Shown here: positions 23,145-50,272 of the stretch, in pieces
Layout: every line of letters begins with the position of its first letter
Numbering within the stretch: the first letter of the stretch is position 1
Source: Pecten maximus
Lineage: Eukaryota
Direction: 5' to 3'
Assembly (NCBI RefSeq): GCF_902652985.1
Contig: NC_047024.1
Span: 25,048,001-25,112,000, forward strand
DNA length: 64,000 nt
Made by a program: the position numbers and the translations under genes
The notes under the pieces: generated by a model
The model's input: the letters and a program-made list of their open reading frames with translations, nothing else
The model's database searches: none
Told to the model about the DNA's origin: nothing

Positions 23145-24453
23145 ATGAATACCAGTTCCTTAGCCGTGGGCTCAGATGAGTTCCTTATGGAAGCAGAGGA
23201 GAAAGCCTACTTGGAAAACTTCATACCTTTCACTATTCATGATGGCGTTTATCTTCGTCGTTGGGACGATAGGAAATGTGACGGTTTTGGTTATCTACTT
23301 CATCAGATATAAACCGTCGACATACCGGATTTGTATTCTGACTCTTGCTGCAATCGACTTATCCAGTTGTACCATAGACGTACCAGCCTATATTGCTGAG
23401 GAGAGATTTCGTTACACGTATCGCCATGGCGTACCGTGCATTTTGTTTGAAACGTTCCACTTCTACATTCTAAGCTTCTCCTATATGATGTTGAGTTTCA
23501 TTGCGATAGAGAGATATCGCCGGTCGTGCAAACCCTTTGCACACCAGATCACTCTGAACGAATCAAAAATAATTTGCCTAGTCCTTGGGATTTCGTGTGT
23601 TTTCATTTCCTCGCCCGGTATTTGGATACATGGAATCGTCCTTGTTCAAGTCGAGGGTGCAAATGTTACTGGTTACCAGTGCGACGTGATCGACAAATCC
23701 TCCACGCTCACAAAGGGATACTATGTTTTATGCTTGCTTCTTCTTTTAGTTTCGTTGGTCATCTGTGGGACTATTTATACACTTGTTGGTCGAGAACTGA
23801 TGAAAAGAAGAAACGAACTGAAAAAGCATTCTCCAAAATCAGCCGTTATTCCATCTGTGGCAAATGAAACTACCGGGGACACCACTACTGCTTCAAAGAC
23901 TCAATGTACGCCTGAAGAACAGGTTAATGAAGAAACGTCCTCGCATGAAGTTGTGGACATCGAGTCAGACCAATTAGACAAAAGTGAAACTACTTCAGTT
24001 GATCACAACAATAAGATAACGAGCACCGAAGACACGTCACACATCATACTAGCCAATCAGAAGCACAAACCTAAGGGAATTATCATGAAGAAGCATAAAA
24101 ATAAAAAGAAGAAAACTATGAAGTTAAAAATGGCGGACGATTTGAGAAGGAAACGATACAACAAAAGCGTCAGAATAACTCTGATGTTTCTTGTAGCGTC
24201 GATTCTGTCTTGTTTGTCCGCATTTCCTTTGCTTCTGCTCCAGACGATTGAGGGTATCAGTTCGTCGGCTATGAATTACATGGAAGAGAATATTTTGTGG
24301 TTATCAGTCATGTTGGCAAGATGTCAGCTTTTGAATCATATATTTAATCCGTTTGTGTACTGTTTCATGGATGAGAAATTCCGTAGCGAGTGTATCCTGC
24401 TTTGCAAACGTTTTAAAATGAAAATTTCGGAAAAGTGTTGCGGAGGAGTTTGA
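23145..24453 (+). CDS. Single-exon rhodopsin-family (class A) GPCR, peptide-receptor-like orphan. Main ORF 23176-24453; probable true start 23145 with a 1-nt frameshift near 23228-23230
   Basis: Seven hydrophobic segments. TM1 GTIGN, TM2 LAAID, TM3 IAIERY, ECL2 Cys, long acidic/basic ICL3, TM6 SAFP, TM7 NPFVY and helix 8 DEKFR. Confidence 0.92.
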
Positions 24454-26410: not shown

Positions 26411-28032
26411 AACAAGAGGCCCAATGGGCCTGTATCGCTCACCTGGCTCTACAGCAACTTTGAAGTTGATTGAGGTCATTTCTACAGATACTATGCTGAT
26501 TACTTCTTTATTCAAATATCATAGTAAGCTAAGTTTATTCATATTAATAAATGTTCTAGTCCTTCATTCCAGCATTTTATTGGCCTAATATCAGGTCTCG
26601 ACCTTGGCTATCGCAAAATTATTGTTTACAGATTTAAGCGGATTTCACCCCTGTGACTTTTAGTGAAGGTCAAGGTCATTCATTTGAACAAACTTTGTAG
26701 CCCTTCACTCCAGCATGCTACAGGCCCAATATCAAGTCCTTGGGCCTCTTGGTTATTGGGAAGAAGTTTTTTGAAGATTATAGCCTATTTGACCCATGTG
26801 ACCTTAAATGAAGGTCAAGGTCATTTATTTGAACAAACTTTGTAGCCCTTAACCCTAGCATGCTACAGACCCAATACCAAGTCCCTGGGCCTCTTGGTTA
26901 TTGAGAAGAAGTCGTTTGAAGATTATAGCCTATTTGACCCATGTGACCTTTAGTGAAGGTCAAAGTCATTTATTTGAACAAACTTTGTAGCCCTTCACTC
27001 CAGCATGCTACAGGCCCAATATCAAGTCCTTGGGCCTCTTGGTTATTGGGAAGAAGTTGTTTGAAGATTATAGCCTATTTGACCCATGTGACCTTAAATG
27101 AAGGTCAAGGTCATTTATTTGAACAAACTTTGTAGCCCTTAACCCTAGCATGCTACAGACCCAATACCAAGTCCCTGGGCCTCTTGGTTATTGAGAAGAA
27201 GTCGTTTGAAGATTATAGCCTATTTGACCCATGTGACCTTGAATGAAGGTCAAGGTCATTTATTTGAACAAACTTTGTAGCCCTTCACCCCAGCATGCTA
27301 CAGGCCCAATATCAAGTCCCTGGGCCTCTTGGTTATTGAGAAGAAGTCGTTTGAAGATTATAGCCTATTTGACCCATGTGACCTTGAATGAAGGTCAAGG
27401 TCATTTATTTGAACAAACTTTGTAGCCCTTCACTCCAGCATGCTACAGGCCCAATATCAAGTCCCTGGGCCTCTTGGTTATTGAGAAGAAGTCGTTTGAA
27501 GATTATAGCCTATTTGACCCATGTGACCTTGAATGAAGGTCAAGGTCATTTATTTTAACAAACTTTGTAGCCCTTCACCCCAGCATGCTACAGGCCAAAT
27601 ATCAAGTCCTTGGGCCTCTTGGTTAGTGAGAAGAAGTCGTTTGAAGATTATAGCCTATTTGACCCATGTGACCTTGAATGAAGGTCAAGGTCATTTATTT
27701 TAACAAACTTTGTAGCCCTTCACCCCAGCATGCTACAGGCCAAATATCAAGTCCTTGGGCCTCTTGGTTAGTGAGAAGAAGTCGTTTGAAGATTATAGCC
27801 TATTTGACCCATGTGACCTTGAATGAAGGTCAAGGTCATTTATTTGAACAAACTTGGTAGCCCTTCACCCCAGCATGCTACAGGCCCAATATCAAGTCCC
27901 TGGGCCTCTTGGTTATTGAGAAGAAGTTGTTTGAATGAAAAAGTTGACGCCGGACGGCCGGACGGACGGCCGGACGACGGACGCCGCACCACGGCATAAG
28001 CTCACTTGCCCTTTGGGCAGGTGAGCTAAAAA
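26411..28032 (+). mobile_element. Helentron-associated non-autonomous element (HINE/Pearl/DINE-1-like) carrying about 9 copies of a 145-bp satellite
   Basis: 5' AACAAGAGGCCCAATGGGCCT hairpin, subTIR GCTCACCTG (26437) / CAGGTGAGC (28018), 145-bp period (repeat ORFs 290 and 435 bp apart), (GGAC/GACG)n tract at 27950-27985, and a 3' stem-loop followed by TAAAAA. Confidence 0.9.
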
Positions 28033-28478: not shown

Positions 28479-31400
28479 TCACACCATAATTTCTCTTGCG
28501 ACAATGCTCGCTTTCCTCTTCGTTGTTCTTGGGCCATCACACACATCTTGACTGTCGCAAACATCAAATTCGTGATTCTGTCATCAAAAGAATATAATAT
28601 ATTAATGTTATCACTCTTACTGTCTTTGATATTAACATTTGGCCAAAAACAGATAAACAATTGGACAGCAATCAGATCTAAGATTCATTGGACTCAATTT
28701 GTTGGCCTTAGCACTATCGAACTGGTGCTGTTTTTCTGAGAGAATGGAGGTACTACATGTTATTATAGTTGGCAATATATTGCAAGGTTGAAAATTTCCC
28801 TCATTTTCATATAGATTGGTTGTGCCTCCTGCAAAAAGTATTGCTAAAGAAATTTACATGTGTTTCTAATTAAAAATCCCAGACACACATAATTATATAT
28901 TTCTCTCATACTTCACAGGTCAATTTTTCCGTTTTTGGTAGGGAAAAGATAACACCTGTCTTTTACCAGGATAGGGAAGAGACAGCTCATATGCACTATG
29001 ACACCACTCACAATAATGTTACGTCATAATTGTAGTATGTAGAGTAACCACTTCACAAATTGATAACATCAATTTTGATGCACTTTTTCAAAGAAAATGA
29101 TGATAAGTGTGAAGAAAAGGTTTCACAAAACTTTTCAATTTTTTTTTTTTTTTTGAAAGAGTTTGAGTAAAAATAATCAAATATGGGCCTGTACCATGGA
29201 CAGGGATTTCTCTTACCCTGGACAGGGATATCCGCAGTTTTACTGGGGTGAGATTTTCTTATCACAGACATCACTATGACCTGACCCGGAACGTTTGAGT
29301 GTTAATATCAGTATTATTCAGAAATTAAAATAAGTATTAATTATCAGAGTTAACTGAGTGTTTGGTGTCCTTTTTGACAAGCTTATTGGAATTGTATTTT
29401 GTATGAAATTAACATTGTAAGGTGTAAAGCGTCTGCTGCAGTCTTATCACAACTGTCATCTGCCGTCCACGTGTTGTTGTTACATACGTTTGGATTTGGT
29501 TCACACTTGGAAAACAGGATAAGAGAAAAATAATCATTCACCCATTTTTAGGATGAGATAGGGGGGTCTCAAACCTCGGGGACAGATTGTTAAGTTCCCG
29601 AACACTCGACAAGCCTCGTGTTTGGGAATTTAACAATCTCCCCTCTCGGGTTGAGATCCCCCTATCTCACCCCAAAAGGGGTGAAAGATTCTATTAATCT
29701 TAACCCGGGGATATCTTAAGAGTTTGGCTAGTCAGCACTCCAGCCTCGTGCTGAGTATAGCCTCACTCTTGCACTCAGGTTGAGATATATCAGTCCACAG
29801 GACAGGTCATCTAAGATTATTTAAATCTCATTTTTTAAACATTTTACATTAAATAACATGACATCTCTTGTTAGATTAAGCGATTGAAAACATTAATGGT
29901 CAACCAACTGAGAAAACAGTGGATTATGTAGATGTTGAAAAGCAATCACAAAAGATACCTATCAATATTCTAATTTTGTCACGACATGTTAGTCACCTAA
30001 ATATCAGCACCCCATTTCAGCAATATTTAACACCAAATAATGGTTGCAGTGACCTATATTTTGTATACCATTAGGGTTTACCATTACACAAATCATGAAG
30101 ACCATATATGAAATACTAATGTAGTAGAGTAAATGCTCCAGAATAAGTTTTTGTCAAATCTAGGTCAAAGATCAAACTATATGCCACAGTGACCTACATC
30201 TACTCTGGTACCTCCAGGTAACTAGACATATGTATTCTTCTAAAAATATGGATATTTCAAATATGAAAACTCACTCCATCGACCTTTGAGATTGCCCTTT
30301 TCCTTCCTCTCTTTTTGGCTGATGGTGGTTTAAATTCCTCTTCCTCTTCATTCATTTTAGGGGATAGTCTAGGACTGTGTCTCACCTTGGTTAAAAATAT
30401 TCAGCAAAAGATGTGATGCAATTTAGGAAAATATATGAACACTGAACAGTAAAATGTCATTGCTTCATCAGCAAAATTTTCCCTTCATTTTTCTTAAAGT
30501 GCAATTAGCTTTTATTTGCAAAATTGGGAATCTTGCATCTAGAAATATCTGTCTTTTGCTGGTAAATTATACATGTATTGTGAATATAAATTACATTACT
30601 AAAAATCTTGATATCCAACAGATAGGATAACAAAGATTTTGATATCTACATCAAACCTATCTGCAGTCCTGTGTTTAACTCAAACTGTACCTTTTCAACA
30701 GGCGCTGCTGGTTTCTTCTTGTTCTTTTTCCCTTTCTTCTTTCTTGAAAGACTGATACCTTCTGCCATCTCAGTCAGCTGAGAAATCTATTCAAGTAAAT
30801 GATATGTTTGCACATTATTTAGATATTGCAAGTAACTATCTTAATGATATTGAGGGACATGGACTTGGTGTAGTGGTGTAAACTGAAGTATTCTGTCTTG
30901 GTGATCAGGTTATATCATGATTTTGATACCTCGATCAGGTCAGGACATGAGTCATAAAACTGACTTCCTTTGTCATTTGTGTTATTATGTTAATCATGCA
31001 AGATTTAACGTTATATGCATAACAACCATACATATAAAACAATATAAGCATTTACTGAATGTTCAGTTGCCCGAAGAACTAAATCTGATTTATATTTCCA
31101 AGAACGAAAGAACAATAGATGTAGATACCCTTCCGGCCCCTGATAAAATAAAGGAAACAGTGACCTTGACCCAAAACTCTGGAACTCGAAATTGTCTGAG
31201 ATATTCCGGTTCTTAATTTATCATGTGAAGTTTGATCAAAATCCTTCAAGAAATGAAGTTACTAGAGTGCTGACAATCGTTGGCGTTATGTACATCTGTA
31301 CATCGTACGTAAAAACAGACAGAGGGGAAACCTACAGTACTCCCGGTTTTACATGTAGGGCACTTATAACATACCGGTACATCTTCCTTAGATGTTGGCT

Positions 31401-34400
31401 GTGTCTCACTTTGTTGTTGTGGCTGACAATTTTTCTTCTTGAAGTACCTTGGTATACCTTCATTCAAAATCTTACTCTTTTCCACCATTTTTCCTAGTCT
31501 TTAATTAAAAATATTTTCTCAGTTTAACTAACACAAGTTATTGAAGTACATTTTGTATGTCTCTGTGTTTTATATCAACATTATGTATTAATTAAACAAA
31601 TACTTCTACAAAAGAAGAGACTATCAAGCCAAATTCAATTAAATTCATTGCATATAGAAGCTGAAATAGAACATTTTATGCTGTGATTTTTTTTAATGGG
31701 TGATTGGAATTATGTTGTAGACATATTTAGATTTTGTCATGTGGTTTTATCATGTATATTTTGAAAAAAATGGCAAGTATCAATTTAAAACTTCATCCCA
31801 AAACCTTAAACCATACCTTTTTCCTTTCCCTGCATTACGAATGAAGCCTTCTTTTTCCAACCTGTTCATGAGACCTTGAGCCACAGTCATCTCCACACCA
31901 AGCCTTCTGGCAAGATTAGGTCCAATCACCCTGTTCATCTCAGAGGTAGCCATCAAGGCCCTTCTCCACAGACAAGTAGCCTACATTCATAAACAAAATA
32001 TTGCAGTAAAACTGTTAATTTTTTTTAAAGGTTTTAATGAACATGTTTAAAATCACCATTGGAAGTACACCATTACTGTATTTTATTCTAATCTAGTGAA
32101 AAGACAGAATTTCAATTGAGATACATGTAGGTCAATTATTAAGAGTAGCAAAAATACCAACACGGCTGTTGTGACTAGAATATATGCATATAGTTCTTGT
32201 ATCTTGGGTACTTAAATGTTTTTTTTTTTTTTTTTTTTATATTTCTTTTATTTTCAAACATTTTACATGGTATACATAAATAGACATCAACAAACAATCA
32301 CTTGCACACTCGCACCCACAGCCTTCAAAAGATCATTGNNNNNNNNNNNNNNNNNNNNNNNNNNNNNNNNNNNNNNNNNNNNNNNNNNNNNNNNNNNNNN
32401 NNNNNNNNNNNNNNNNNNNNNNNNNNNNNNNNNNNNNNNNNNNNNNNNNNNNNNNNNNNNNNNNNNNNNNNNNNNNNNNNNNGATATACTTGCATATGTA
32501 GCATCATGACATAACATAGTACAACATAGCGTAAATAAACATAACATAAACAGGATTTTCCCTCATATTTTGTTATAAAAGGTCCTTTATAAATAAATCA
32601 AAAAAATCAAAAAAGTTTTCTGCATTCAAATGACAGATTTTAGAATTAACAGTACATCCTAAGGATGCAGAGTGCAGAGACGTTTAGTTTGGGAGGCCTT
32701 GATGGATTTTCTGCGTATAGCACGCATGAATCCAGTGTCAGGGAAGATCCTGCATACATAACATACATGTACATACATACACATATATATACACACACAC
32801 ACCTATACACACACACCCATCCTCACACACACCCTCACAGACAGAAAGGCAGAAGACACACTAAGGAAGACAGATAGGAAGGGAGAGAAAGGAAGAGAGA
32901 GGAGGAGGTACCATTTCTTAATTACATACATGTAATTATTGCATACATGCATGTACAAGAATATTGTAATACAATATGTATTAAGAGATAAAATACTGAT
33001 AAATCACTGGGCTAGTCAGCGATACAGACCACAACAGTCAGTGTTATGATATACAATAATAGAAGATAAGTAAAAGAAAAGTAAGTTACCTGTATTTATA
33101 TAATAATACAGTGTATATAAAAATAAGTTTAAGACCAGGGTAGGATGTGTAAAAGACTAATACAACTCATAGATCCAATAAAGGCTTCCACTTCCTCCAG
33201 CCTAAATCAAATTGTCTTTTACCATGGTCACTAAGACTGTTATACATATATTTTTGGACTACAAAATTATCTTTAATTACATTAATGAGAGCATTGATAT
33301 TCAAAGAATTGCTAAGACATCTGGTTTTATATATGTAATGTTTCATAATGATTAAAATTTCATTGTCAACAGAACTACAATTTTGTAAAACTATTCCAAA
33401 AAGAAATGAGTCTTTATTATATGCAAAAGGTATAAACAACAAATCTAACAAAGTTTCAAATTTATGAAGAAGAGTTTGCACCTCCTTGCATTCCCATAAG
33501 CAATGTATAATTGTCTCCCTTTCCATATTACATAAAGTACACATAGTTGGGTACTTAAATGTGGTGTGGAGAGTGATAGGCATGATGATTAATATTTCTT
33601 TGGTTTTTAAGCTACAATCTGCTTTATCAAGACTGTCAGTCTCACTGGGAAATCAGAGTTCCAGGGGAAACACTAACCCTCGACATGTAATTGACAAAAC
33701 TTTTAAATCATGGAAACAAATTCTAATCCCTGAACATGAACAGATGTGCAAATATAGAAAGTCCTAGATTTCCATAAATCTTGTAAAACTAATGTGAAAA
33801 AATGTGAAAGTTCATTCCTTTTAACACTAATGACTATAGTGTAAAATCTCTGAAGATTTGGTAGGGAATTTTAGGCATATGGACACAGATGAATATTCTA
33901 AGTAAAAAAAAAAAAAAAAAGATTTAACTTTTGTTAAGATATCTAACAAGACGTGCTTTTGTGATTGCAAGAATATTAAAAGAGAAAACGATGGATTCAG
34001 TATGAAATTTGATCTATCAAATCATGCACAGTGATTTCCTGAAATTCTGAAAGGTTACAAAAGATATATCACAATATGTATTATGTTGTGACCCTTGTAC
34101 CCTGATGTGTATTGTATTGTTAGTACCTCAGTGATATACAGCTCCAAGTATTGATAAATTGACTATGATTAATTAACATTTCTACCACAATACCCTGTGT
34201 TATTCAACTCTCAGACCATCAGTTAATCATTACAGCTGTTGATTAACAATCTGTTTATACCACACGTGGTATAAACTCTGTACGCATTTTGATTGGCTAA
34301 CATGGTGAACTTTGACCCAAGCTGCAATTGTTATTGACGTCATCAATAATCTAATGACGTCACATCACCGGGTCCTGGACATCACCGGTACACTTTATTT

Positions 34401-37400
34401 GCATACGCGAAATTATACTTGGCCACCTTTCCCTTTGATTCAAGCCGATATTCTTGTGGTAGAAACAGGTCACACGACTCGAAATTGTTGGATATGGAAT
34501 TTATTTCACACTCGTAAGTTATTTTTCAAAAGTTGCAAAAAACACTCGCTAAGCTCGTGTCTTTTGTAACTTTTAAAAAATAACTTACAAGTGTGAAATA
34601 AATTCCATATCCAACAACCACTCGTTGTGTAACCTTTATTTAAATACCTGTATTCCAATTGCTGATAGTGTATTCAGATAGGGATCTGTTGGTTCTTTAT
34701 CTTGATTTCCTGGCTACAACGTTAATTAAATATAAAAAAAGCAAATTTAACAAACAAAAATGCTCAAACTTCTTCAATTTAGAAAGATCAGGAAGTTTGT
34801 CCAAAATTATGGGATGTAAAAAAACACACATACCAGTACTGATAACTATAGTTTTTGAATAAAAGTCATGGTCTTACATTAAATTTAACAAATGATGTAT
34901 CAAGGTAGCAAAATAGCTGTCAAAGACAGGAGAATTACTGATTACTGTTATATAGTTTTACTTTAGTTAACACAATAATATTGCAAATGAAATTACTCCA
35001 CCTCTCCACAGACTTCACAAATGTGCCGTGCAGGAGCATCAGTCTCACACTGTACAAGGAAGCATACTCCATGTTGCCACGTATTGCAAACTGCACACAA
35101 AATCATTAATCCATCATCCTACAAAAAACAAATATTACAAATGTGAATGTTTTGCCTTTTAACAGATCAATAGGAACAAAAGTTGTGGATTGTGGGATAA
35201 ATTTTCTTTAATTTATACCAGGTATCATCAGCCTTGCATGCACCTTTAAAGCAGTGCATGAAATTAAATTACTTCTACCTCAATCCGAAGGGTGACAAAT
35301 AAATAAGAAAAAATACCTCATTACATCCACAAGGGCAACGAACTCCCATCTCCTCATCCTGTGCTGACATTTGACTCTTCTGTGATCCAGTTGTATCAAT
35401 AGCACGGTCTGTTGAACCTTTTGTGATTATAAATAGAACTAGTTAACATTTTCTAGTCTTGCTTTGAAATTTTTCCAACACTGCTTGCCTTTTTCTAGAT
35501 GTTTAAAAATTGAAATCCAGTTTATCTTGAGCCCTTCACCTTTAATTTCCATTGATTTTGAGGATGACAACTTACCTGGTACATACATTAATTATCCAAT
35601 TCCTTGTGTCTTGGTTAGACATCTCTTGCAATTTTAGAGATATATCATATGTTCTTTGATTAAATGTTTAACATTTGAACTTATGTTTTTAAAGTAACAA
35701 GTATATACAAAGTATATTTGATCATTTTATAAATAGTGACTGACCAGGCATAGCAGGCATTTCTGTTGGTACTACCGCATCTGGTGTACGGCATTTCTTT
35801 GATTGCTTTCCAAGAAGAGATATCTTTTCTGTTGAGCTATCTTCATTAAAGGAATAAACATCCCCTTCAATGATTTCTTGATCCTAAAAACAAACATAAC
35901 CAAAAGCAACAACTGAGTAAATTATGGGTCCAATTTTGTGGGTTTTTTTTTGGAAATACATCAGTGTGCAAAGTTCAATAACTCTAGGTTGTGGCAAAAA
36001 TATTTTGCCCCAAAATTATGTAGCATCTAGAAAATATTTTGCCCCAAAATTATGAAACGAACACATTGTACCCATTGTTCCATTTTCTAGAACAGTTTTA
36101 CTGATAAGAATCTAATGTATAGAAAAAAGTACAAACCTCTTGCTCCATTAATTCTCTATCTGGAACTTCCACACACATTTCTTCCTGCACAGGACTCTCA
36201 ACCTTTTCTTTATCCTCTTCTTCAACTGCGTCATCTTTCAGTTCAAACTGCTTACTGTCAGTTTTTATTCTCATTTTTATTCTGAAAGTTTAAAATACAA
36301 AATGTATATACAAACATCTACAACGTATAATATTCATCTTTATGATGCGGTTATGTATGAATTGTATTGATTTGATGATCAATATGTAAATCTGAAAGAA
36401 GAATTTTACCTTGCACCTTATACTCATCTTTGTATTTGACATCAATCGTCATACTACAATATAATTTTCATGAAGTACAATGGTAGTAGTTAATGTTAAT
36501 GGAGTTCATATGATTTAACTTGTACATTCCTACAGTAAAAGATGTAATGTCCCCACCACTTTTTGATGAATGAATGTTCTATCAGTTCAAATGAATATAT
36601 TATTGGACTTGCATATGAATTGATCTTGTATGCAGCATTTGCATGAATGTTTTTACTTCTCTGCATGTTAGTTTGAATCAATTGTTAGATTCATAACCAT
36701 TTCCACAATATTCTGACACTACACATACACATTGAATATACAAAAATGTGTTAACCACAAACAAGTAATCAAAAACTGCATATTAAAATGTGCTGGAGAC
36801 AGTTTGTTTTTGTATTGTTATTAAATCAAGCTAGTCTATATTTGTTTGCAAGTGTATATCTTGCATCTAAAAATCATAAATTTCTTTACTAATTTAGGGA
36901 AAAGAAATACCAAAATGTTATTGTTTACTTTGAGATTAAAGTGTTATTCATCTGAATAACTTGGATCTAAAAATCATAATTTTTTATACTAATTTCAGAA
37001 AAAGAAATACCAAAATGTTATTGTTTACTTTGAGAATGAAGTGTTATAATATATATCTGAATAACTTAGCTCAACTGAGAAAGTTAGCTTATCAGATGTG
37101 ACATTTTAGGTGCTACTGCATGTGTATTCAAATGATCAAATTTGTACTGGTAATAGTTTTGATTATTGGTTTATATCAAAAGCAACATAAAAACATGCAT
37201 TGTGAACATAGACTTAAAACTGAGTGAAATGGAATTATTATTCAAATGTTGAAAAAGTTTTTTTGGGGGAGTCGGTAATTATTAATTACAAATAATAGCA
37301 AAATAAACTTGTAACAGAACAAGAGATCCCAGAGGGATCTTGGCGCCCACCATTGAATGATCTTTATAGGTTCCATGTCAGATTGATCTTTTCTCTACTT

Positions 37401-40400
37401 TTCCCTTCCTCTAAGTCTTACTAATCTGTGTAAATTCAGAAACAGCCCTCTAGTACTTTTCAAACAAGGGCAACCTATATATAAAATTTAAGATTTAGCA
37501 ATAATGGCTGTCTGTTGGCCATGTTGTTTTCCGATTGGTCCCAAAATGCAATACCAGGGACCAAGGGGAACCTACATATGAAATTTCAGAAAAATCCCTT
37601 CAGTACCTTCTGTACAATAGCGATAACAAACTTCAATTTTCAAAATACAAGATGGCTGCCTGTCAGCCAGGTTGTTTTCTGACTGGTCTCAAAATCCAAT
37701 ATGCATAACTAGACACAGAGGGCAACCTACAAATGAAATTCAGAAAGATCCTTTCAGCAATTTCTGATTAATAGCGATAACAATCTTCAATTGTCAAAAT
37801 CCAAGATGGCTGCCTGTCGGCCATATTGTTTTTCGATTGGTCTCAAAATGCAATATGCATAACTACGCACTGAGGGAAACCTACATATGAAATTTGAGAA
37901 AGATCCCTTCAGTACTTTCTGAGAAATAGCGATAACAAACTTCAATTGTCAAAATCCAAGATGACTGCCTGTCGGCCATGTTGTTTTCCGAATAGTCTCA
38001 AAATGCAATATGCATAACTATGCGCCGAGGCAAAGCTACAATTGAAATTTCAGAAAGATCCCTTCATAAGTTTCTGAGGAATAGCTATAACAAACTTCAA
38101 TTGTCAAAATCCAAGATGGCTGCCTGTCGGCCATGTTGTTTTCCAATTGGTCTCAAAATGCAATATGCATAACTAGGCACCAAGAGGAGCCTTTATATGA
38201 AATTTCAGAAAGATCCCTTCATAAGTTTCTGAGAAATAGCGATAACAAACTTCAATTGTCAAAATCCAAGATGGCTGCCTGTCGGCCATGTTGTTTTCCG
38301 ATTAGTCTCAAAATTCAATGTGCATAACTAGTCACTGAGAGGAACCTACATATGAAATTTCAGAAAGATCCCTTCATTAGTTTCTGAGAAATAGCGATAA
38401 CAAACTTCAATTGTCAAAATCCAAGATGGCTGCCTGTCGGCCATGTTGTTTTCAGATTGGTCTCAAAATGCAATATGCATAACTAGGCACCAAGGGAAAC
38501 CTTTATATGAAATTTGAGAAAGATCCCTTCAGTGCTTTCTCAGAAATAGCGATAACAAACTTCAATTGTCAAAATCCAAGATGGCTGCCTGTCGGCCATG
38601 TTGTTTTCCGATTAGTCTCAAAATACAATATGCATAACTAGGCACTGAGGGGGACCTACATATGAAATTTCAGAAAGATCCCCTTATTAGTTTCTGAGAA
38701 ATAGCGATAACAAACTTCAATTGTCAAAATCCAAGATGGCTGCCTGTCGGCCATGTTGTTTTCAGATTGGTCTCAAAATGCAATATGCATAACTAGGCAC
38801 CAAGGGGAACCTACATATGAAATTTCAGAAAGATCCCTTCATTAGTTTCTGAGAAATAGCGAAAACAAACTTCAATTGTCAAAATCCAAGATGGCTGCCT
38901 GTCGGCCATGTTGTTTTCAGATTGGTCTCAAAATGCAATATGCATAACTAAGCACCAAGGGGAACCTAAATATGAAATTTGAGAAAGATCCCTTCAGTAC
39001 TTTCTGAGAAATAGCGATAACAAGAATTGTTTACGGACGGAGGGACGGACGGACGGACCACGGACCACGGACCACGGACGCAGGGCGATTTGAATAGCCC
39101 ACCATCTGATGATGGTGGGCTAAAAATAAGAGAGACAATACTTACGTATGGAATTGCTAAATGGGGTTGAGGCAAAATTATTTGTTGACGGATAAAAATG
39201 GTACACATTATTAATTGTATTCGAGTAATTGTCAGAATCGAATTTGTTCCCTGTTAAACTTATTTATCTGTATTTAATTTTTCATCCGAAAGTTTGCAAA
39301 CAAACATAATTTTCTTGATGTTAAAAAAATACAATAAAATAGTAAATATCAGTAGACAGCAGTTATACACATCTAGAAGTACAGAAGATATGCTACATGT
39401 TCACAACATCACTTACAGTAGATACATCTCCAACTTTGATGTTCATTGGTTCTTCATCAAACACAAATGTATCACTCTGTGCTGGTTTGAAACCTGGAGG
39501 TTCATAATCTGCTGGTGTACCTGTTGGAGAAAAAGGCTCCGTTTAACCCTACATGTATATACCCAGCAATTGTCAATACAAAACATGAAACCTTGGGCTC
39601 ATTGCAATTTCACAAAACTTTGTAGTTATTTATTTCCAACTTTGTTATAAACATACCATACTTAATTAATCATGCCTTTTTTAAAAAGCAAATTTTTTGG
39701 TTGACTTCTCATATATAAAAAAATATAAACAGGTATGTTAAATGCCACATAGTTAAATGATTGCTTTCCTTAAAAAGATTTAATTAAAACATAGTGAATG
39801 CATCATAATGATTGAGCTTTTATTATAGAGTTGATCACGGTTGGGGGTTTCGAAAAAAATTTAATGCCAATATGCACACTGACTTGGCATTTCCAATAGC
39901 TCTCTTGCATGTAAATTCTTTAATATTTTATATTTATTTACTTATGTTCAATATGAAAACAAAAAAATGTCTGAATTCCTGGAGGCAATTAATTTTCAAA
40001 TTGCAGTCTAGTTTTAATTGTATTATTCTTGGTATATAATTTTTTTTACACAATTTTTTTTACAAGTGTAAATTCTGACAAGTTAAATCAAGCTTGTTTC
40101 ATGATATTTATGTTTGTATCGACAAAAATACACACAGTCATCATAGTAAAGTAGTTTCATGGTCAGCATCACATCATCTGGTAAAGACTTCAAGGTCTGG
40201 GTCAATACAACCATTGTTCTCAACAGCCTGATGGTAGCTTTCTTAGTCTCCAAAACCGAGTCAGCACTAGCAATCTTCTTTTCATTTCTGAAAATTACAT
40301 ATATTGTATAAAAAACTTTGAAGATGAATTTCGGAAATTTGTTAAGTTACTGAATAAAAAGTTATAGTTAAAATCAATATGAAGAAATTGAGGTCACTCC

Positions 40401-43400
40401 ACACTCACCTTATCTTACAATTAGCATTTATATCACCAATTAATCTGTTATAGTCTTACCTATAAACATCCATTTCTGCAGTGTTTTTATATGAGAATTT
40501 GAAGGTGTAAGATTCAATGACTGTCTGCAAATAGAATTAAACGAGACATTTACAAAAAAACATTTATAAATGAAACATAAAAATACCATAATACATGTAA
40601 ATGACATCTTTAAATTTATACAGTGTAATGTTATGTAGCTTTTTTTCATTTAATTTGTAAATATAAATAACATTTAATCGAATCAAACAGAATTTACATG
40701 AAAAAGGTTTAAACTTACGATATAAGCATGGTTATTTTAAATAAATGCACAAAATTTGTGTTTTTAAGTGCACTGCAGTGAGCGTGCTATTAAGGTTGGA
40801 AACTGAATAATTAACTCTGTAGCTTTATGTAGTCAAATTTGACATTTATCATAGGCAAAGAGCTATTCTAATGACTGCAAAAAAATGTTTTGAAACAATG
40901 TGATTGTAGTTTCATTCAGGTGTTATGTACAGTGACATTGTATATTGACAAGTTGTGATACATTTCAATTCTAACCTCAGCGACTTTGACCCGTAGTACA
41001 GGTATGTGAAAGCTACATTTCACTGTTGGCAGATATTGCAACTTACTGTTGCTTAAAGTTTCATTCAAGTTTCTACAATCATGAACATTTATAAGCCCTG
41101 GAAAAGGTGTGTCCCAGTTCCTTGCCAGATTTTGTCATTTGACCTTGAACAGTGACCTTTACCTTGACCCAAGTGATGTGAAGCAGCACATGTCAAAACA
41201 AAGTCTTGGGATGGTCCGTACCATATTGTATAGGTATGCATGATCAGTTTCATTGAGTACTAGATGGAATGGGATGGACATGAGTTGATCAACTCTATAT
41301 TACTTATTATGAAAATTTCAAACTTAAAATATGAAATCTAATTCAACTTGTTGTTCTTTCATTAACTTACATCAGGGTCTTCTGCATCTATGTATATCTG
41401 AAATAAGATGAAATTATAAATTATGATACAGATTTAAATTTTTTACTAACTGCATGTAACAGTACACAAAATCATCAGACTTAAAATTGAGTATCAGAAA
41501 ACTATCATTTAGTCCTCACAAATTTCTGATTATAGACTTGCATAATAGTGTGTAAAGTAGTTATTGCAAGAATCAATGTACAAGGAGAGAAATATAGGCT
41601 CCCATTAAAACTACAATGTACGTATATACAATACAACAAATATTCAAAGTTCATCTGAAAAAGATCAATCCATATTGAATTATCATAACTTAATCACTGT
41701 TTTATGACATCCATGTGATCAGGGTTGTGTATTATTAGATTAAACTTTACACCTGAAGGTAACATTTTGTAATCTATACTTACTCCCATGATAAGCATTC
41801 TCAGCTGAAAAGGAAAACAAAAATCCACCATGATAAAGCATTTTTTTCTAAATTGAAAACCTTATGAGTGAGAATACACATCTGTTCCAGCTGGCTAGAA
41901 TGCATATCATTGATTATATAGAAACTCTACAGAGATTTTTTTAATATAAAATCACCCTTTTGACTAGAATCAGGTAAATATCATTGACACAAGGAAACTT
42001 TTATACATATTGTGTATACAAAATTAGCATCCCATTCCAAATGATCAATGTCCAAATACAATTGTCCTTATACAGAGAAACATCAATAAATAACTGTAAA
42101 TCCTGGATACCTACTAAACAAATTTTCTGGAAAAAGTTGTTTATGAATATTGATTGACAATGAACAAAAGTTAGTATGCTCGGGCAAATTGTGCCATGCA
42201 AGCTAAAAGGTCAAAAAGAATCATAACTAGCCCAGTGATTTATCTTACATATTTCTTGTCAACAGCATCAAAACATCCCTTGACCCACTTAATGACTTGG
42301 GAGGCACCTGGACAAGCACTGTCATCTCTCATAATTTTGAGATTTAAACCTGGAAGAAAAGAAGAAAATTCATATCTGGATTAAAATATGGAATCATTGA
42401 CAAGATAAAAAAGGAAAAAAACAAAAGCAAAAAGCAATGCTCTTTGTAAAGTTTCTTAGATTAGCTAGTTACATTGAATTTACATGGTTATAATAAATCC
42501 TACATATAGTTTCAAATTGAAAAGCTCTAGAATTTGTGAACAAGGGTCCAATGGGCTGGAATCGCTCAGCTGCTATCCAGTGGGCCTTTTTATACATAAA
42601 CATGATTAGAACAAGTGTATCAGAGACCAGATATAAGATCTCAGGGCCTTAATTGCAGTTATTTGAAAAGGTATCTTTTAAATATTTAGGCCATTTTAAC
42701 TCTTTCACTTAACTCATGGTCAAGGCCATTCATTTCAAATAACAGGTCACTTTTGGTTATTGAAAAGAAGCAATGGAAATATTTTGGTCCATTTGACCTT
42801 GAAGGTAGGTCAAGGTCATTCATTTGAACAAATTTGATAGGCCTTCACCCCAGCATGCTACAGAACCAATATCAGGTCTCTGGGCGGGAGGACAGACGAC
42901 GGATGCCACGCCACAGCATAAGGTCAGATGCTCTTTGGGCAAGTAAGCTAAAATGGATGGATGGACAGAAGGAAGGACAGAAAAACAAGGCCATGCATTT
43001 ATCATTTCTTTCATCAAAGTTGAACTTAAGGCTTGATCAACATCCAAATTGGAATTTACATCCCTGCTTTTCTGACATATTATTACACCATTGGCATTGC
43101 AAGTCTTTTTTTCTCATCTGCCATTACCATTTACCCTATCACCAATTTGGCTCAGCCCTTAATACATTGAATATTGTTCTTAAGTTTGAAGACTTTCAAA
43201 AAATATTTGGGAGTTATTTAATGGCAAATGATAGTGTTTTTCATAAATCAAGGGACAATAACTAAGTTTGGTGATAATCAGATAATATGTGCATGGAAAC
43301 AGTAGAAAACATTTTTTTTTCTTTGATCATGGGGCCATAGCTCTGCCAAATACCATCCAGCAAATCTGGCAATCGAACTTGGCATTAACCTGGTAATAAA

Positions 43401-44552
43401 GTTTGAAGAAAATCTGTTGACAATTGTTCCAGTTATTTCACAGAAATGGCAGAAAACAATGTTTTAAGTTAATCAAGGAGCCATACCTCCATCAAATAAA
43501 GCCAGGTAAAAGTTGCAATCAAACTTGGCAGAGCTTTCAGGCTTTAAACCTTGTTACCAAGTTTGAAGAAGACATTTGTTGCAGTTATTGTACGGAATTG
43601 AAGCGTGACAGACAGACAGTCTCAGATGGCCAGCCTGACAGATAAACCCAAATTAATATCCACTGTTTCGGTGAAAGCAGGAGATAAAAAGCGTACATTA
43701 AACCTTTACTTTTGTCTCACCTTCAAGGCATCTGTCACCAAATGCATGTTCAGGAAAAATTGCCCTGAGGTATGCAATATTGGAAATTGCAACTGCAAGC
43801 AACTTCTTGACAAATAGTGCAGACTGCTGTTCAGTAACTTGTTCATTTGGAAATATTGAAGACCACTGAAAAATTGATAAAACATATAAACATTGATGAT
43901 AAATCATCACAATAATCAGGTATACGTATTTGATTCAAAATAAATATCTTCTAGACTTTGAAAATATATTGAAAATATGTGACAATTGAAGAGTGAATAC
44001 TACCATAAGATTTAAATATAAGCTGTCACCAGGGTATATTACTATGCATTCTCTATAATGATAACCAGAAGTTTGTTTAAAAATTACATAAATTCAGTTA
44101 AATTTGAAGAACTCATTTCTTTATTCAAAAGCAAAATTTTAAGGAAGCAAACAAAATCCCAAAAACTATTAATGTCTGCATGTAAAACATACACATTTTG
44201 TATAATGTCCTTTCCGAACCATTTTTGCTGTAGGTTATTTTCAAAATATGGAATGCATAGATCTACAAACATACACTTCTGGCAATAAGTATCAGTCTTC
44301 CTAAGATCAAGAAGGAAGTACTTATTTTTGAAGGCTAAAGCTCAAAATATTGGTTGCAAATATCTCCTTGTAAGAGATACCCTGCATGTATCTATTTAGA
44401 TTATTCCTAAGAGTTAATATTAATGTGAAATGGAATGGGAGGTGTCCTGGATACAAAAGACAACATGGATTCATTTTTACAGTTGACACCAGTATTTCAC
44501 CTACCGTATTACTTTTCTCCTGGGGTCTTTGTAGTGTGGCCGTGCACGCCAT
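28479..44552 (-). CDS. HORMAD1: HORMA-domain meiotic axis protein (Hop1/HORMAD1-2 homolog) with PHD finger, winged helix and closure-motif tail; about 611 aa, 19 coding exons
   Basis: Phase-consistent GT-AG exons: 44552-44505, 43865-43721, 42349-42249, 41804-41784, 41397-41371, 40524-40460, 40287-40136, 39520-39417, 39156-39146, 36281-36137, 35883-35745, 35417-35317, 35118-35002, 34713-34648, 31980-31817, 31498-31375, 30786-30691, 30385-30275 and 28577-28479 (1836 nt in total). HORMA motifs: IFPNEQVTEQQSALFVKKLLAVAISNIAYLRAIFPE, KWVKGCFDAVDKKYLRML, ESYTFKFSY, LTMKLLYYDDCTPADYEPPGFK. Confidence 0.95.
29530..29825. mobile_element. Two adjacent fold-back (palindromic) MITE-like elements in the last HORMAD intron
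   Basis: TTCACCC..GAGATAGGGG..GATTGTTAA..TCCC / GGGAATTTAACAATC..CCCCTATCTCA..GGGTGAA around a CTCG..GCCTCG centre, followed by a second weaker hairpin. Confidence 0.65.
32220..33546 (-). mobile_element. 5'-truncated L1/Tx1-like LINE insertion with poly(A) tail and 16-bp target-site duplication, in a HORMAD intron
   Basis: ORF 33167-33546 has the knuckle CTLCNMERETIIHCLWEC. Poly-T at 32219-32238. TSD TTGGGTACTTAAATGT at 32204-32219 and 33547-33562. Spans the N gap. Confidence 0.9.
32339..32482. other. Assembly gap (N run)
   Basis: Run of n bases. Confidence 1.
34245..34640. mobile_element. Non-autonomous DNA element ending in a near-perfect palindrome of about 170 bp (34467-34636)
   Basis: TTGTTGGATATGGAATTTATTTCACACT.GTAAGTTATTTTT / AAAAATAACTTAC.AGTGTGAAATAAATTCCATATCCAACAA around CTCGCTAAGCTCG. 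The left end has the palindrome TTTATACCACACGTGGTATAAA. Confidence 0.75.
36865..37068. repeat. Tandem duplication of about 100 bp
   Basis: ATCTAAAAATCATAA...AAAAGAAATACCAAAATGTTATTGTTTACTTTGAGA...ATCTGAATAACTT occurs twice. Confidence 0.8.
37318..39126 (+). mobile_element. HINE/DINE-1-like element with about 10 copies of a 155-bp satellite, in a HORMAD intron
   Basis: Head AACAAGAGATCCCAGAGGGATCT + GCCCACCA. CCAAGATGGCTGCC at 37801, 38111, 38421 and 38731 (155-bp period). (GGAC)n tract. 3' hairpin AGCCCACCATC-TGAT-GATGGTGGGCT followed by AAAAA. Confidence 0.9.
42539..42952 (+). mobile_element. Old short copy of the 26411-28032 HINE family
   Basis: AACAAGGGTCCAATGGGC..ATCGCTCAGCTG head, CCTTCACCCCAGCATGCTACAG core and CTTTGGGCAAGTAAGCTAAAA tail. 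Confidence 0.7.
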
Positions 44553-45373: not shown

Positions 45374-46751
45374 AACAAGAGGCCCAAAGGGCCTTAACGG
45401 TCACCTGAGATTTGAAATATTTCGGCCAACTAAATTGACCCTTTTTGGCCCCACCCATCAGTCCTAATGGGGTCAGTCTATGAAGAGTATTTGATTCTAA
45501 CATATAGTAGATAAGAAGATTTTTGAAATTTCAGTCAATTTGACCCTTTTTGGCCCCACCCACCAGCCCCTGGGGGTCAACCAGGGCCAACATGTACATA
45601 ACATCAAACTGTAATCCCATGCTGATAATTTGAACCAAGTTAGAATGAATTCCAATACAAATCCAACAAATAATAGTCAAAAATGTGATTTCCCTATATA
45701 AACTATAGTAAAGTTTACCCCCTCCCCAGGGGCAAACGTGAGACCCCAGGGTCATGAAATTCACAATTTTGGTAAAGCACCTTAAGACCCTTCCATCTAT
45801 GAAGAATATTTGATTCTACCATATCTGAGAGTATAGAGAAAGATTTTTGAAATTTTAGTCAATTTGACCCTTTTTGGCCCCGCCCACCAGCCCCTGGGGG
45901 TCAACCAGGGCCAACATGTACATACCATCAAAATGTCATCCCATGCTGATAATTTGAACCAAGTTAGAATGAATTCCAATAGAAATCCAACAAATAGTAG
46001 TCAAAAATGTGATTTCCCTATATAAACTATAGTAAAGTTTACCCCCTCCCCAGGGGCAAACGTGAGACCCCAGGGTCATGAAATTCACAATTTTAGTAAA
46101 GCACCTTAAGACCCTTCCATCTATGAAGAGTATTTGATTCTACCATATCTGAGAGTAGAGAAGAAGATTTTTGAAATTTCAGTCAATTTGACCCTTTTTG
46201 GCCCCGCCCACCAGCCCCTGGGGGTCAACCAGGGCCAACATGTACATACCATCAAACTGTCATCCCATGCTGATAATTTGAACCAAGTTAGAATGAATTC
46301 CAATACAAATCCAACAAATAATAGTCAAAAATGTGATTTCCCTATATAAACTATAGTAAAGTTTACCCCCTCCCCAGGGGCAAACGTGAGACTCCAGGGT
46401 CATACAATTCACAATTTTGGTAAAGCACCACAAGACCCTTTCATCTATAAAGAGTGTTTGACTCCACCATATCTGAGAGTAGAGAAGAAGATTTTTGAAG
46501 TTTTAGTCAATTTGACCCTTTTTGGCCCCACCCCTCAGGCCCCTAGGGGGTGGGGACCATATAATTCACAATTTTGGTTGACCTTCAGCCATAGAAACTT
46601 TCTGCCAAATTTCATTGAATTTTGTTAAGTGGTTTTGTAGAAGAAGTCGAAAATGTAAAAAGTTTACGGACGTACGACGCACGACGGACGACGACGGACA
46701 AAAGGCGATTAGAATAGGTCACTTGAGACTTCGTCTCAGGTGACCTAAAAA
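45374..46751 (+). mobile_element. HINE/DINE-1-like element with about 3.3 copies of a 324-bp satellite, in the HORMAD 5'-UTR intron
   Basis: Head AACAAGAGGCCCAAAGGGCCTTAACGGTCACCTGAG, 324-bp period (repeat ORFs at 45797 and 46121), GGACGACGACGGAC tract, and 3' hairpin GGTCACTTGAGAC-TTC-GTCTCAGGTGACC followed by TAAAAA. Confidence 0.9.
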
Positions 46752-48245: not shown

Positions 48246-48727
48246 GATCTTGTTCTGGAATCTTAAATGCTTTGATTTTGGTTTTTTGTTTGTTAAATTG
48301 ATAAAATTATGACGATCTCGTGACTTCACACGCGTCTAAGAATGTAAATTGTAATATTTCCTTTAACATCACCACCACCACTTTGTAGCACTCGATACCA
48401 CCAGTGATTCTCAAGAAGTTTAAAATGTGTTTTACAAGATGGTGGCCGTCTTGGATTAAGGACCCACCCGAAAAATAAAAACACTTGGTCAGGACCATCT
48501 CAAGAAAGATCCTGTCGTGTTAATCGAAATCACGAAACTGAGCTTATTTGTAAAGAACAGCAACATCACCACCATGCTTCAGATACATCTTAGACCAGAC
48601 AGCTATTGTTGTCATATTCACATTACTTTGATTAGCATTGATATAATCGATACAACGATGTATATCGATCAATCGCATTATTTCCATAAAATGTTCAATC
48701 GAGATGAGTCGACGAATATTGTCTCAC

Positions 48728-49092
48728 CTGTCTTCTCTTTCTTCTTGAAATGCAGACGACAATATCCCACAATGCTTAATCACGGAACTGCGCGTGAAAA
48801 CAAATCCTTGGCATGAAAACGCTTGCTTATATCAAAAACCGATAGGCTCTCCTTGATTAACCAACAAAATGATTTAATAAAAATCTGTCATATCGTTGTT
48901 CACGTGTTGTTGTTTTTAATTTTGAATATCGCGCGGTTTCAACGTTCATCCAACGTAAGCTTTGAAAACATAACATCTCAAGCGCTTTAAAGACTCGGAA
49001 CCAGAGGATTTCGATGACTTGCGCAGAGCTGTTGCTAGCAACAACAACTAACACATCCGGTAGAGAGGATTTTTGACTTGCTCGAGTAAACG
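48728..49092. promoter_or_regulatory. Probable bidirectional promoter HORMAD(-)/ROPN1L(+) with the two non-coding first exons; RFX X-box at 49031-49042
   Basis: Divergent strong donors CAG|GTGAGA (minus, 48728) and ACG|GTGAGT (plus, 49092), local CpG enrichment, palindromic GTTGCTAGCAAC, TCACGTG at 48900 and TTTGAA at 48921/48961. Confidence 0.65.
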
Positions 49093-50272
49093 GTGAGTTT
49101 TATAATCGAAAAAAATGTGTGAAATTTAAACGAATGTAATAGAAACGTATATACATTTTGTTAAAGAGTTATTAAGTCGATTAATGATTTGAAAAGCACT
49201 GTTTACGAAGGAAAATGAAACACGAAAAGTTAGAAAACCCCTGACACAGAAGTGGCTACTGTCACTGTGTACATCAGACATATCGAATGTTAGATTCATT
49301 TTAAATCATATCTTCGAAATCCATTGTAAAACATCACATCATTAACCAACTATACAACGGAAAATTCATGCCATTATCATGTAATCATTAATTTTAAATA
49401 TGTAAAGATGCAACCTACATGTACTTTATTTGATGTAAAGTCCAACATAATATATGCAGGACATTTGGGGCTGATTATGGACCAAATTCCCAGCTAAAAT
49501 GATTTATTATTGAAGCCAACTTCCACAATATTACAGTTTATTCCTGAAAAATACAAATTCACCAATTTTCTTCCCCAAATCAGGCAAATAGCCCCAATCT
49601 TAAATCGAGAGAAAAAAGCCCTACATACATGTACAGTAATAATGTACAATATTATATGTATTACCATTTAGGAGATTTGTTCAGGCCCTGTTAAACTATT
49701 ATAACCATAGCCTCATGGATCAGTTACTATGTATATATGTATTCTCAATTTGAACTAGCACAATTTGATATTTTAATTGCTTAATCTATTACAAGGGCTC
49801 CAAATTTGCCCGTCAAATTTCCTTTTCAGAACGTATTAGATAATTTTAAACCACATGTATTCCATTGCAATAGCTATAGTAGCTGTTCCTCTGTTTACCA
49901 GTCATTAGTAAGCTATTACTTATTTAATTGTTGGGTCTTTCTGTTATTTTTCATTCATAAAATAATATCTAAGGATTTGGCTTGTGTGTACAGTACAGTA
50001 ATACATGCAGGTGATAAAAACTTTTTTTTAAATGTATATTACATTTTTGACATACTTATAACCTTATACCCAGGTCATTTACATTACCTTAAGTATAAAT
50101 TTTGATATGATTGGCATGAATTCATTAAATGACAAATAATCAGTATAAATAATCCTGTGAAAAAAAAGGAAAAAAATAATACAATTCTTACCAAACTTGT
50201 CAGCTAATACATTTTGATGTTGTAATATATTTATAATAACAATTTTTATTTCTCCATAGCCAAACAGCAAGC

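What the first reader, a model, noticed from the sequence alone, without database searches (positions are those of the whole stretch)
31375..35417. Molluscan HORMAD retains a Hop1-like PHD + winged-helix chromatin-binding region
Seen after splicing: VRCPCGCNEDDGLMILCAVCNTWQHGVCFLVQCETDAPARHICEVC (C4-H-C3 PHD), linker PTDPYLNTLSAIGIQ, then ATCLWRRAL...PNLARRLGVEMTVAQGLMNRLEKEGFIRNAGKGKRLGKMV (winged HTH). Established: budding-yeast Hop1 has a PHD/wHTH nucleosome-binding region, while mammalian HORMAD1/2 lack it. Inference: the PHD keeps the M and W residues (LMILC, TWQH) used in H3K4me-reading cages, so axis loading and hotspot placement in this animal may be directed by direct histone reading. 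None of the PHD or core wHTH exons appears in the ORF track.
Basis: partly seen in the sequence, partly recalled or inferred. Interest (0 to 1): 0.75.

Follow-up and report, generated by a model that had tools for sequence, protein, structure and literature searches.

The report
Scallop HORMAD with histone-reading module
This scallop gene encodes a HORMAD protein, likely the meiotic chromosome-axis one, that keeps the PHD plus winged-helix module already crystallised from sea star and blood fluke and likely binds nucleosomes the same way; the one new point is an 11-base exon whose skipping, seen in scallop and oyster RNA assemblies, breaks the reading frame ahead of that module and may act as an on/off switch.

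Summary
The exons belong to a 19-exon minus-strand gene (611 aa, 18 of 18 introns GT-AG) identical to database protein P0001, labelled Pecten maximus HORMAD1-like. RNA contigs show 15 of 18 joints, including all nine around the PHD and winged helix. The module is 61% identical to the crystallised sea-star Hop1 chromatin-binding region (9MYP) and keeps the zinc ligands, cage residues and DNA-binding basic residues. The architecture and the H3K4me3 idea are published (PMC10907721, PMC12365614); that work detected no histone-peptide binding and no H3K4me3 preference. I saw no mollusc in those papers' lists, so this is a new member of a known kind; it is the animal type, not the budding-yeast type. 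The scan noted the same module as a stand-alone arthropod gene before (e1-7709122). New here: an 11-nt micro-exon (39146-39156) sets the frame between HORMA and the module. The only scallop contig crossing it skips it (stop after 228 aa). Skipped forms recur in oyster contigs and in limpet and snail gene models, and the same 11-nt exon occurs in two other loci. Regulated switch or splicing noise is untested.

The parts
28479..44552 (-). HORMAD coding span, 19 coding exons, 611 aa
   Evidence: 18 of 18 introns GT-AG, one ORF, identical to P0001; only locus hit in G000
39417..43865 (-). exons 2-8, HORMA domain core (aa 17-221)
   Evidence: Pfam HORMA aa 31-224, E 2.8e-62; joints 1-2 to 6-7 in RNA contigs
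39146..39156 (-). exon 9, 11-nt frame-setting micro-exon (aa 222-225) in the HORMA safety-belt region
   Evidence: only one of 5 AG-11-GT candidates in 3135 nt that encodes the conserved x-F-H; skipped in the X2 contig; same exon in L060 and L062
36137..36281 (-). exon 10, last HORMA strand and start of acidic linker (aa 225-273)
   Evidence: model strand E224-229; match to human HORMAD1 8J69; RNA joint
35745..35883 (-). exon 11, disordered linker (aa 274-320)
   Evidence: RNA joints in 4 of 4 runs; pLDDT under 50
35317..35417 (-). exon 12, linker and PHD start (V345, C347, C349)
35002..35118 (-). exon 13, PHD body (D354, D355, M358, C361, C364, W367, H369, C372, C387, C390)
   Evidence: 9MUG E 2e-11, 9MYP E 4e-11, then Set3, PHF20, MLL5, ASH1L PHDs; Pfam PHD_5
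34648..34713 (-). exon 14, PHD-to-wHTH linker (aa 393-414)
   Evidence: joints 13-14 in 2 of 4 and 14-15 in 3 of 4 runs
31817..31980 (-). exon 15, winged helix-turn-helix core (aa 415-469; R454)
   Evidence: 9MYP E 4.5e-20, 9MUG E 7.2e-8; helices 410-427, 434-441, 445-457 in the model
31375..31498 (-). exon 16, wing and capping helix (R469, K472), then disorder
30275..30786 (-). exons 17-18, basic and acidic disordered tail (aa 511-579)
   Evidence: RNA joints; low pLDDT
28479..28577 (-). exon 19, C-terminus with likely closure motif and stop
   Evidence: basic-[AS]S-hydrophobic end in 63 of 78 relatives; closure-motif role inferred from position

Best explanation
This is the only HORMAD gene found in this genome, likely the meiotic axis protein, with a HORMA domain, a central PHD plus winged-helix module and a likely C-terminal closure motif; by analogy with the 61%-identical sea-star protein the module likely grips nucleosomes in two ways, the winged helix on DNA and the PHD pocket on the histone H3 tail. 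Shown here: gene structure, splicing of the module exons into one transcript with HORMA exon 8, sequence and predicted-fold match, retention of every residue that was mutated in the sea-star study (W367, and R454, R469, K472 for R463, R477, R480). Inferred: in meiotic prophase the HORMA domain closes round closure motifs of axis partners and of other HORMAD molecules, and the module adds low-micromolar, weakly mark-selective nucleosome binding that biases where axis protein accumulates. Full-length protein needs inclusion of the 11-nt exon 9; transcripts that skip it stop after 228 codons, before the last safety-belt strand and the whole module, and would likely give no working axis protein.
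For: Gene model identical to P0001; RNA joints; 89 of 147 residues identical to the 9MYP construct, E 1.6e-59, and 9MUG E 2e-33; AlphaFold2 module with 10-residue block pLDDT 71-93 over aa 341-490 superposes on 9MYP at 2.1 A, TM 0.85 by target, and 9MUG at 2.3 A, TM 0.88; zinc-ligand spacing identical to the Schistosoma numbering in PMC12365614; M358 and W367 in 78 of 78 relatives, R454 in 74 of 78; sea-star W376A and R480A each weaken nucleosome binding (PMC12365614); HORMAD transcript rises in maturing testis of another scallop (PMC3774672 passages).
Against: No binding or meiotic localisation was tested for this protein. An in-frame HORMA-to-module mRNA of this species was not seen in the 4 runs laid; the one crossing contig is out of frame; in-frame support comes from the public model and from transcript-sized contigs of relatives (P0003, P0159, P0160, P0085, P0148). 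The HORMA part of the AlphaFold2 model is poor (block pLDDT 49-76; 17.6 A to 8J69). The 78 relatives were found by similarity to this module, so conservation counts are inflated.
Confidence: 0.8

Rival explanations
1. One reading: the PHD is a selective H3K4me3 reader that loads the axis on marked chromatin and thereby places double-strand-break hotspots.
For: Cage positions I-IV kept (W367, M358, V345, D354 or D355); nearest solved PHDs are the H3K4me2/3 readers Set3, PHF20, MLL5, ASH1L; AlphaFold 3 placed H3K4me3 in the pocket for 17 of 17 such modules (PMC12365614).
Against: Same paper: no binding to histone peptides detected, and equal affinity for unmodified and H3K4me3-mimic nucleosomes. 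Oyster testis expresses Prdm9 and Zcwpw2 (PMC12111275 passages), so another targeting route likely exists in bivalves. No hotspot map was found or made.
Confidence: 0.3
2. Exon 9 is a regulated switch: somatic or pre-meiotic cells transcribe the gene but skip the 11-nt exon, giving a frameshifted, decay-prone mRNA; meiotic cells include it and make full-length HORMAD.
For: Skipped joint in scallop X2; in the oyster clusters 12 of 21 listed Logan sequences (45 contigs) carry the skipped joint, 2 (2 contigs) the included one, 7 are uninformative; limpet models P0006/P0157 begin across the skipped joint; snail model P0041 has a tail 12 of 12 compatible with the shifted frame, 0 of 2000 shuffles; exon size, phase and the donor context are the same in L060 and L062; out-of-place HORMAD1 harms mitosis in human cells (PMC12979829 abstract).
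Against: Tissues are unknown; contigs give no inclusion ratio; one scallop contig only; listed transcript-sized members of other clusters (mussel, bay-scallop-like, sea-cucumber-like, hydra-like) were all included forms; the snail and limpet records are gene models that can simply miss a micro-exon; no further skipped tails among 140 new representatives.
Confidence: 0.35
3. Skipping of exon 9 is unregulated noise on leaky transcripts: very short exons are poorly recognised, and the skipped mRNA has no role.
For: Low depth of all HORMAD contigs (2-11), several intron-containing pieces, and in X2 exon 2 is joined to a repeat-derived donor instead of exon 1, so that transcript may be ectopic; short, pyrimidine-poor stretch before the exon 9 acceptor.
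Against: An assembler keeps the commoner path, so a contig that runs straight through suggests skipping is the major form in that sample (inference); the same event recurs in at least two bivalve families.
Confidence: 0.5
4. The skipped mRNA makes a separate HORMA-less protein (module plus closure motif, 384-390 aa) from an ATG just before or after the joint.
For: ATG 11 nt before the joint opens a 390-aa frame in scallop; the same start is called in oyster and limpet records; stand-alone modules are reported in Encephalitozoon and noted by the scan in an arthropod (e1-7709122, unchecked).
Against: The ATG lies about 650 nt inside the upstream HORMA frame, behind many upstream AUGs; it arises automatically from conserved Asp-Val codons; no protein evidence.
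Confidence: 0.08
5. The PHD and wHTH exons are a separate or decayed gene unrelated to the HORMA exons.
For: Some public models split the two halves (P0005, P0006, P0016, P0037).
Against: One contig runs from HORMA exon 8 to exon 19; 73 or more of 78 relatives carry both Pfam domains or the HORMA domain on one chain; no stops or frameshifts in the model.
Confidence: 0.02

Closest known systems
Patiria miniata Hop1 chromatin-binding region (PDB 9MYP; PMC12365614)
   Same: PHD-wHTH fold, 89 of 147 residues identical, same zinc ligands, cage W/M/V/D, and basic residues R454, R469
   Different: K472 replaces R480; G370 replaces Ala after the His ligand; mollusc host; no binding data here
Schistosoma mansoni Hop1 chromatin-binding region (PDB 9MUG)
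   Same: same architecture and ligand spacing; E 2e-33; rmsd 2.3 A
   Different: 44% identity; Val rather than Ala at cage position III
Budding-yeast Hop1 chromatin-binding region (PHD-wHTH-HTH-C; PMC10907721)
   Same: [quoted passage not shown]
   Different: no HTH-C extension (model disordered after about aa 493); cage intact here but poorly conserved in yeast; yeast binds bent nucleosomal DNA by another surface; no yeast Hop1 chain among the 17 sequence hits
Human HORMAD1 (PDB 8J69)
   Same: HORMA domain E 3.3e-70
   Different: vertebrates lost the PHD-wHTH region (Table EV1 rows)
H3K4me2/3-reading PHDs of Set3, MLL5, PHF20, ASH1L
   Same: Trp/Met(Thr)/small hydrophobic/Asp pocket; E 8e-6 to 8e-3 for exon 13
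   Different: stand-alone readers with shown peptide binding; none was detected for Hop1 modules

Membership tests
Meiotic HORMAD (Hop1/HORMAD1) | N-terminal HORMA domain closest to HORMAD1 | tested here: met
   Pfam PF02301 aa 31-224, 210 bits; best PDB hit human HORMAD1
Meiotic HORMAD (Hop1/HORMAD1) | C-terminal closure motif after a disordered tail | tested here: inconclusive
   conserved basic-[AS]S-hydrophobic end in 63 of 78 relatives; binding to the HORMA domain not tested
Meiotic HORMAD (Hop1/HORMAD1) | germline expression and localisation on meiotic chromosome axes | not testable with these tools
   run tissues not given; testis increase reported for another scallop
Holozoan PHD-wHTH chromatin-binding region | PHD with Cys3His and Cys4 zinc sites | tested here: met
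   C347, C349, H369, C372; C361, C364, C387, C390; same spacing as Schistosoma; PHD_5 28.5 bits over cut-off 27
Holozoan PHD-wHTH chromatin-binding region | intact methyl-lysine cage positions I-IV | tested here: met
   W367 = Patiria W376, M358, V345, D354/D355; assignment of III by the paper's description, of IV between two Asp from recall
Holozoan PHD-wHTH chromatin-binding region | wHTH packed on the PHD with basic DNA-binding face | tested here: met
   model to 9MYP rmsd 2.1 A, TM 0.85; R454, R469, K472
Holozoan PHD-wHTH chromatin-binding region | binds DNA and nucleosomes in vitro | not testable with these tools
   shown only for the sea-star and fluke proteins
Budding-yeast type CBR (PHD-wHTH-HTH-C) | HTH-C extension after the wHTH | tested here: not met
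   pLDDT under 50 for most residues after 493; alignment ungapped conservation ends near aa 490
Budding-yeast type CBR (PHD-wHTH-HTH-C) | degenerate PHD lysine pocket | tested here: not met
   pocket intact
Selective H3K4me3 reader | measured preference for H3K4me3 over unmodified H3 | not testable with these tools
   closest tested relative showed none
Regulated non-triplet (poison-type) micro-exon | both included and skipped mRNAs exist | tested here: met
   oyster Logan members of both kinds; scallop skipped contig plus included public model
Regulated non-triplet (poison-type) micro-exon | inclusion differs by tissue or stage; skipped form is decayed | not testable with these tools
   only contigs of unnamed tissue were available

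The most novel reading that the evidence does not exclude
Probability: 0.25. Interest if true: 0.65.

Novelty: new member of a known kind. Interest (0 to 1): 0.33.

Why it matters
The domain finding extends a published architecture to molluscs and offers bivalves, which are bred and have triploid-sterility problems, as a test system for the open question of whether HORMAD reads H3K4me3 to steer recombination; it is not surprising to a specialist. The micro-exon matters in two ways: it explains why many public invertebrate models split or truncate HORMAD (which can fake loss of the module), and, if regulated, it would be a splicing-level gate on a core meiotic protein in animals, comparable in logic to the meiosis-specific splicing of budding-yeast recombination genes (recalled, not from a call).

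Tried and rejected
SSXRD (PF09514) search of G000 for PRDM9: no match, but nothing rang in the controls either, so no conclusion. zf-CW search gave 6 places, not resolved into ZCWPW or MORC genes. Short HORMA-only proteins tested for a skipped-exon tail: of 13 tried, 2 fit fully (P0041 12/12, P0043 8/8), P0046 partly (8/13, 87 of 2000 shuffles), 9 did not (intron read-through or other; including Ptychodera P0039 and Porites P0040) and 1 lacked the motif. The 50%-representative search gave no further skipped tails among 140 new proteins. The taxon of L060 and L062 could not be fixed (50-56% identity to several phyla). The 5' piece joined to exon 2 in X2 is not in the window; it is a repeat with 56 exact motif copies, none near the gene. 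Joints 7-8, 8-9 and 9-10 had no cover in the runs laid; this is not evidence of absence. No complex prediction was run (no methylated peptide possible). Literature: searches for a HORMAD micro-exon or frameshift isoform (listings only) and for mollusc work on this region showed nothing relevant; PMC8831610 has no mention of ASY1/HORMA in its main text. Nine large supplementary files and file 7 of PMC10907721 could not be read and may hold mollusc sequences.
Full report
Observation. Reading splice sites by eye and correcting my coordinate slips, I obtained a 19-exon coding model from 44552 to 28479 with 18 of 18 GT-AG introns and one 611-aa frame; it is letter for letter database protein P0001, which its source labels Pecten maximus HORMAD1-like. 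A search of the own genome with P0001 found 15 matches, all at this locus. Pfam gives HORMA at aa 31-224 and PHD_5 at aa 345-390, both over cut-off. The domains are thus already present in the public annotation.

Splicing. Four of 24 listed runs were laid (X2 on record as RNA, the others guessed or unknown; all contigs). All 9 joints from exon 10 to exon 19 stand in one 1606-nt contig of X2; X4, X6 and X17 show 7, 6 and 7 of the 9. Intron 14 holds a stretch of N, but three runs join exon 14 directly to exon 15, so no exon is missing there. Six upstream joints (1-2 to 6-7) were seen. That is 15 of 18 model joints; 7-8, 8-9 and 9-10 were not seen.

What the module is. Exon 15 alone hits the sea-star structure 9MYP (E 4.5e-20) and the fluke structure 9MUG; exon 13 hits the same two, then the PHDs of Set3, PHF20, MLL5 and ASH1L. 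Over aa 345-491, 89 of 147 residues match the 9MYP construct. An AlphaFold2 model from a 31-sequence alignment is confident only for this region (block pLDDT 71-93; whole-chain mean 57; HORMA part poor) and superposes on 9MYP at 2.1 A and on 9MUG at 2.3 A. The eight zinc ligands have the spacing given for Schistosoma. Among 78 relatives found with this region (molluscs, annelids, brachiopod, nemerteans, echinoderms, amphioxus, cnidarians, sponges, crustaceans by source label), M358 and W367 are in 78 of 78, V345 in 72, D354 in 77, R454 in 74, R/K469 in 75 and K/R472 in 75; the set is selected for similarity. W367, R454, R469 and K472 correspond to Patiria W376, R463, R477 and R480, the residues whose mutation weakened nucleosome or DNA binding. 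There is no HTH-C extension.

What is known. PMC10907721 (section 16 and passages read; Table EV1 rows) reports PHD-wHTH regions without HTH-C in 36 of 149 meiotic HORMADs, a conserved cage, loss in vertebrates and most nematodes, and proposes bipartite binding. No mollusc is among the proteins listed in that paper or the 21 of 22 metazoan rows shown from Table EV1 (name searches blank). So the finding is a new member of a known kind. In another scallop, HORMAD transcript rises with testis maturation (PMC3774672, passages). Oyster testis expresses Prdm9 and Zcwpw2 (PMC12111275, passages); my PRDM9 test in this genome was uninformative.

Mechanism. Shown: structure of the gene and retention of the module. 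Inferred from the family (PMC5758881, passages): the HORMA domain wraps its safety belt round closure motifs to load and self-assemble on the axis. Inferred from the sea-star protein: the wHTH binds DNA and the PHD pocket the H3 tail, adding weak nucleosome affinity. I put 0.8 on this and 0.3 on the stronger claim that selective H3K4me3 reading places hotspots.

The micro-exon. Exon 9 is 11 nt (39146-39156), phase 0 to phase 2, between a 260-nt and a 2864-nt intron. The X2 contig of 1606 nt maps with letters 1-93 to exon 8 and 94-239 to exon 10 (same run, length and depth, so taken as one record), and the loose end at 39417 matches the start of exon 10 in 29 of 30 letters: exon 9 is skipped. 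That frame stops after 228 codons, nine joints before the last exon, so it is a likely decay target, and it lacks the last HORMA strand, the module and the tail. The same event appears elsewhere. In the two oyster clusters (186 members, 21 Logan members listed), 12 sequences on 45 contigs carry the skipped joint, either as a HORMA-only protein with the shifted tail or as a module-only protein starting across the joint; 2 on 2 contigs carry the included form; 7 are uninformative. The listing is partial and long proteins split into more singletons, so this is no ratio. Limpet models P0006 and P0157 start across the skipped joint, and snail model P0041 has the shifted tail (12 of 12, 0 of 2000 shuffles), but gene models can miss a micro-exon. 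Two unnamed metagenome loci with introns, L060 and L062, hold the same 11-nt exon encoding P-F-H with the same 3' end and donor context (1 of 8 and 1 of 3 AG-11-GT candidates). Against regulation: tissue unknown, one scallop contig, low depth, a repeat-derived first exon on an X2 contig, only included forms among listed transcript-sized members of four other clusters, and no new cases among 140 representatives. Four literature searches (listings only) showed no report of this exon. Misexpressed HORMAD1 disturbs mitosis in human cells (PMC12979829, abstract only), which would give a reason for such a gate. I put 0.35 on a regulated switch and 0.5 on noise.

Verdict. Observation confirmed; interpretation partly supported and already in print; novelty: new member of a known kind; interest 0.33, most of it from the micro-exon, which is directly testable with raw gonad and somatic reads.

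Noticed in passing
window 32220-33546 (minus), intron 14: 5'-truncated non-LTR retroelement with a 16-nt target-site duplication (32204, 33547), poly-A end and a zf-RVT-like frame (E 0.012, below cut-off); 15 of 40 scored copies in G000 are 98% or more identical, so the family is young; longer copies stand in X4 and X6 contigs.
   Followed up: partly
window 43865 (exon 2 acceptor): An X2 contig joins exon 2 to a splice donor inside a dispersed repeat (56 exact motif copies in G000, none near this gene) instead of exon 1: possibly a polymorphic insertion driving an ectopic transcript.
   Followed up: partly
window 48700-50410: Likely shared promoter: a candidate non-coding first exon of HORMAD ends near 48728 (minus), an X-box-like palindrome sits at 49031, and a plus-strand gene starts at 50273 with an RIIa-type domain (weak, E 0.24; resembles ROPN1L from recall).
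   Followed up: partly
window 23167-24450 (+): Intronless rhodopsin-family GPCR frame of 428 aa (7tm_1, E 7e-19), tail to tail with HORMAD.
   Followed up: no
L011-L031: About 20 unnamed metagenome contigs hold intronless or nearly intronless HORMAD genes with the PHD-wHTH module and the exon-9 sequence fused in; L023 has two copies head to head. Looks like intron loss or retroposition in one lineage, which would remove the micro-exon gate.
   Followed up: no
P0005, P0006, P0016, P0037, P0010, P0015, P0027, P0084, P0109: Many public invertebrate HORMAD models are split or patched exactly at the micro-exon, a likely source of false 'stand-alone PHD' or 'HORMA-only' calls.
   Followed up: partly
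window 26650-27950, 37500-39100, 45480-46640: Tandem arrays of roughly 145-320-nt units and high-depth short repeats at 29200-29700, 34175-34645 and 42610-42890; ordinary bivalve repeats by appearance.
   Followed up: no
window 41784-41804 and 41371-41397: Two more micro-exons (21 and 27 nt, in frame) in the HORMA domain, both included in X2 contigs while the 11-nt exon is skipped.
   Followed up: partly
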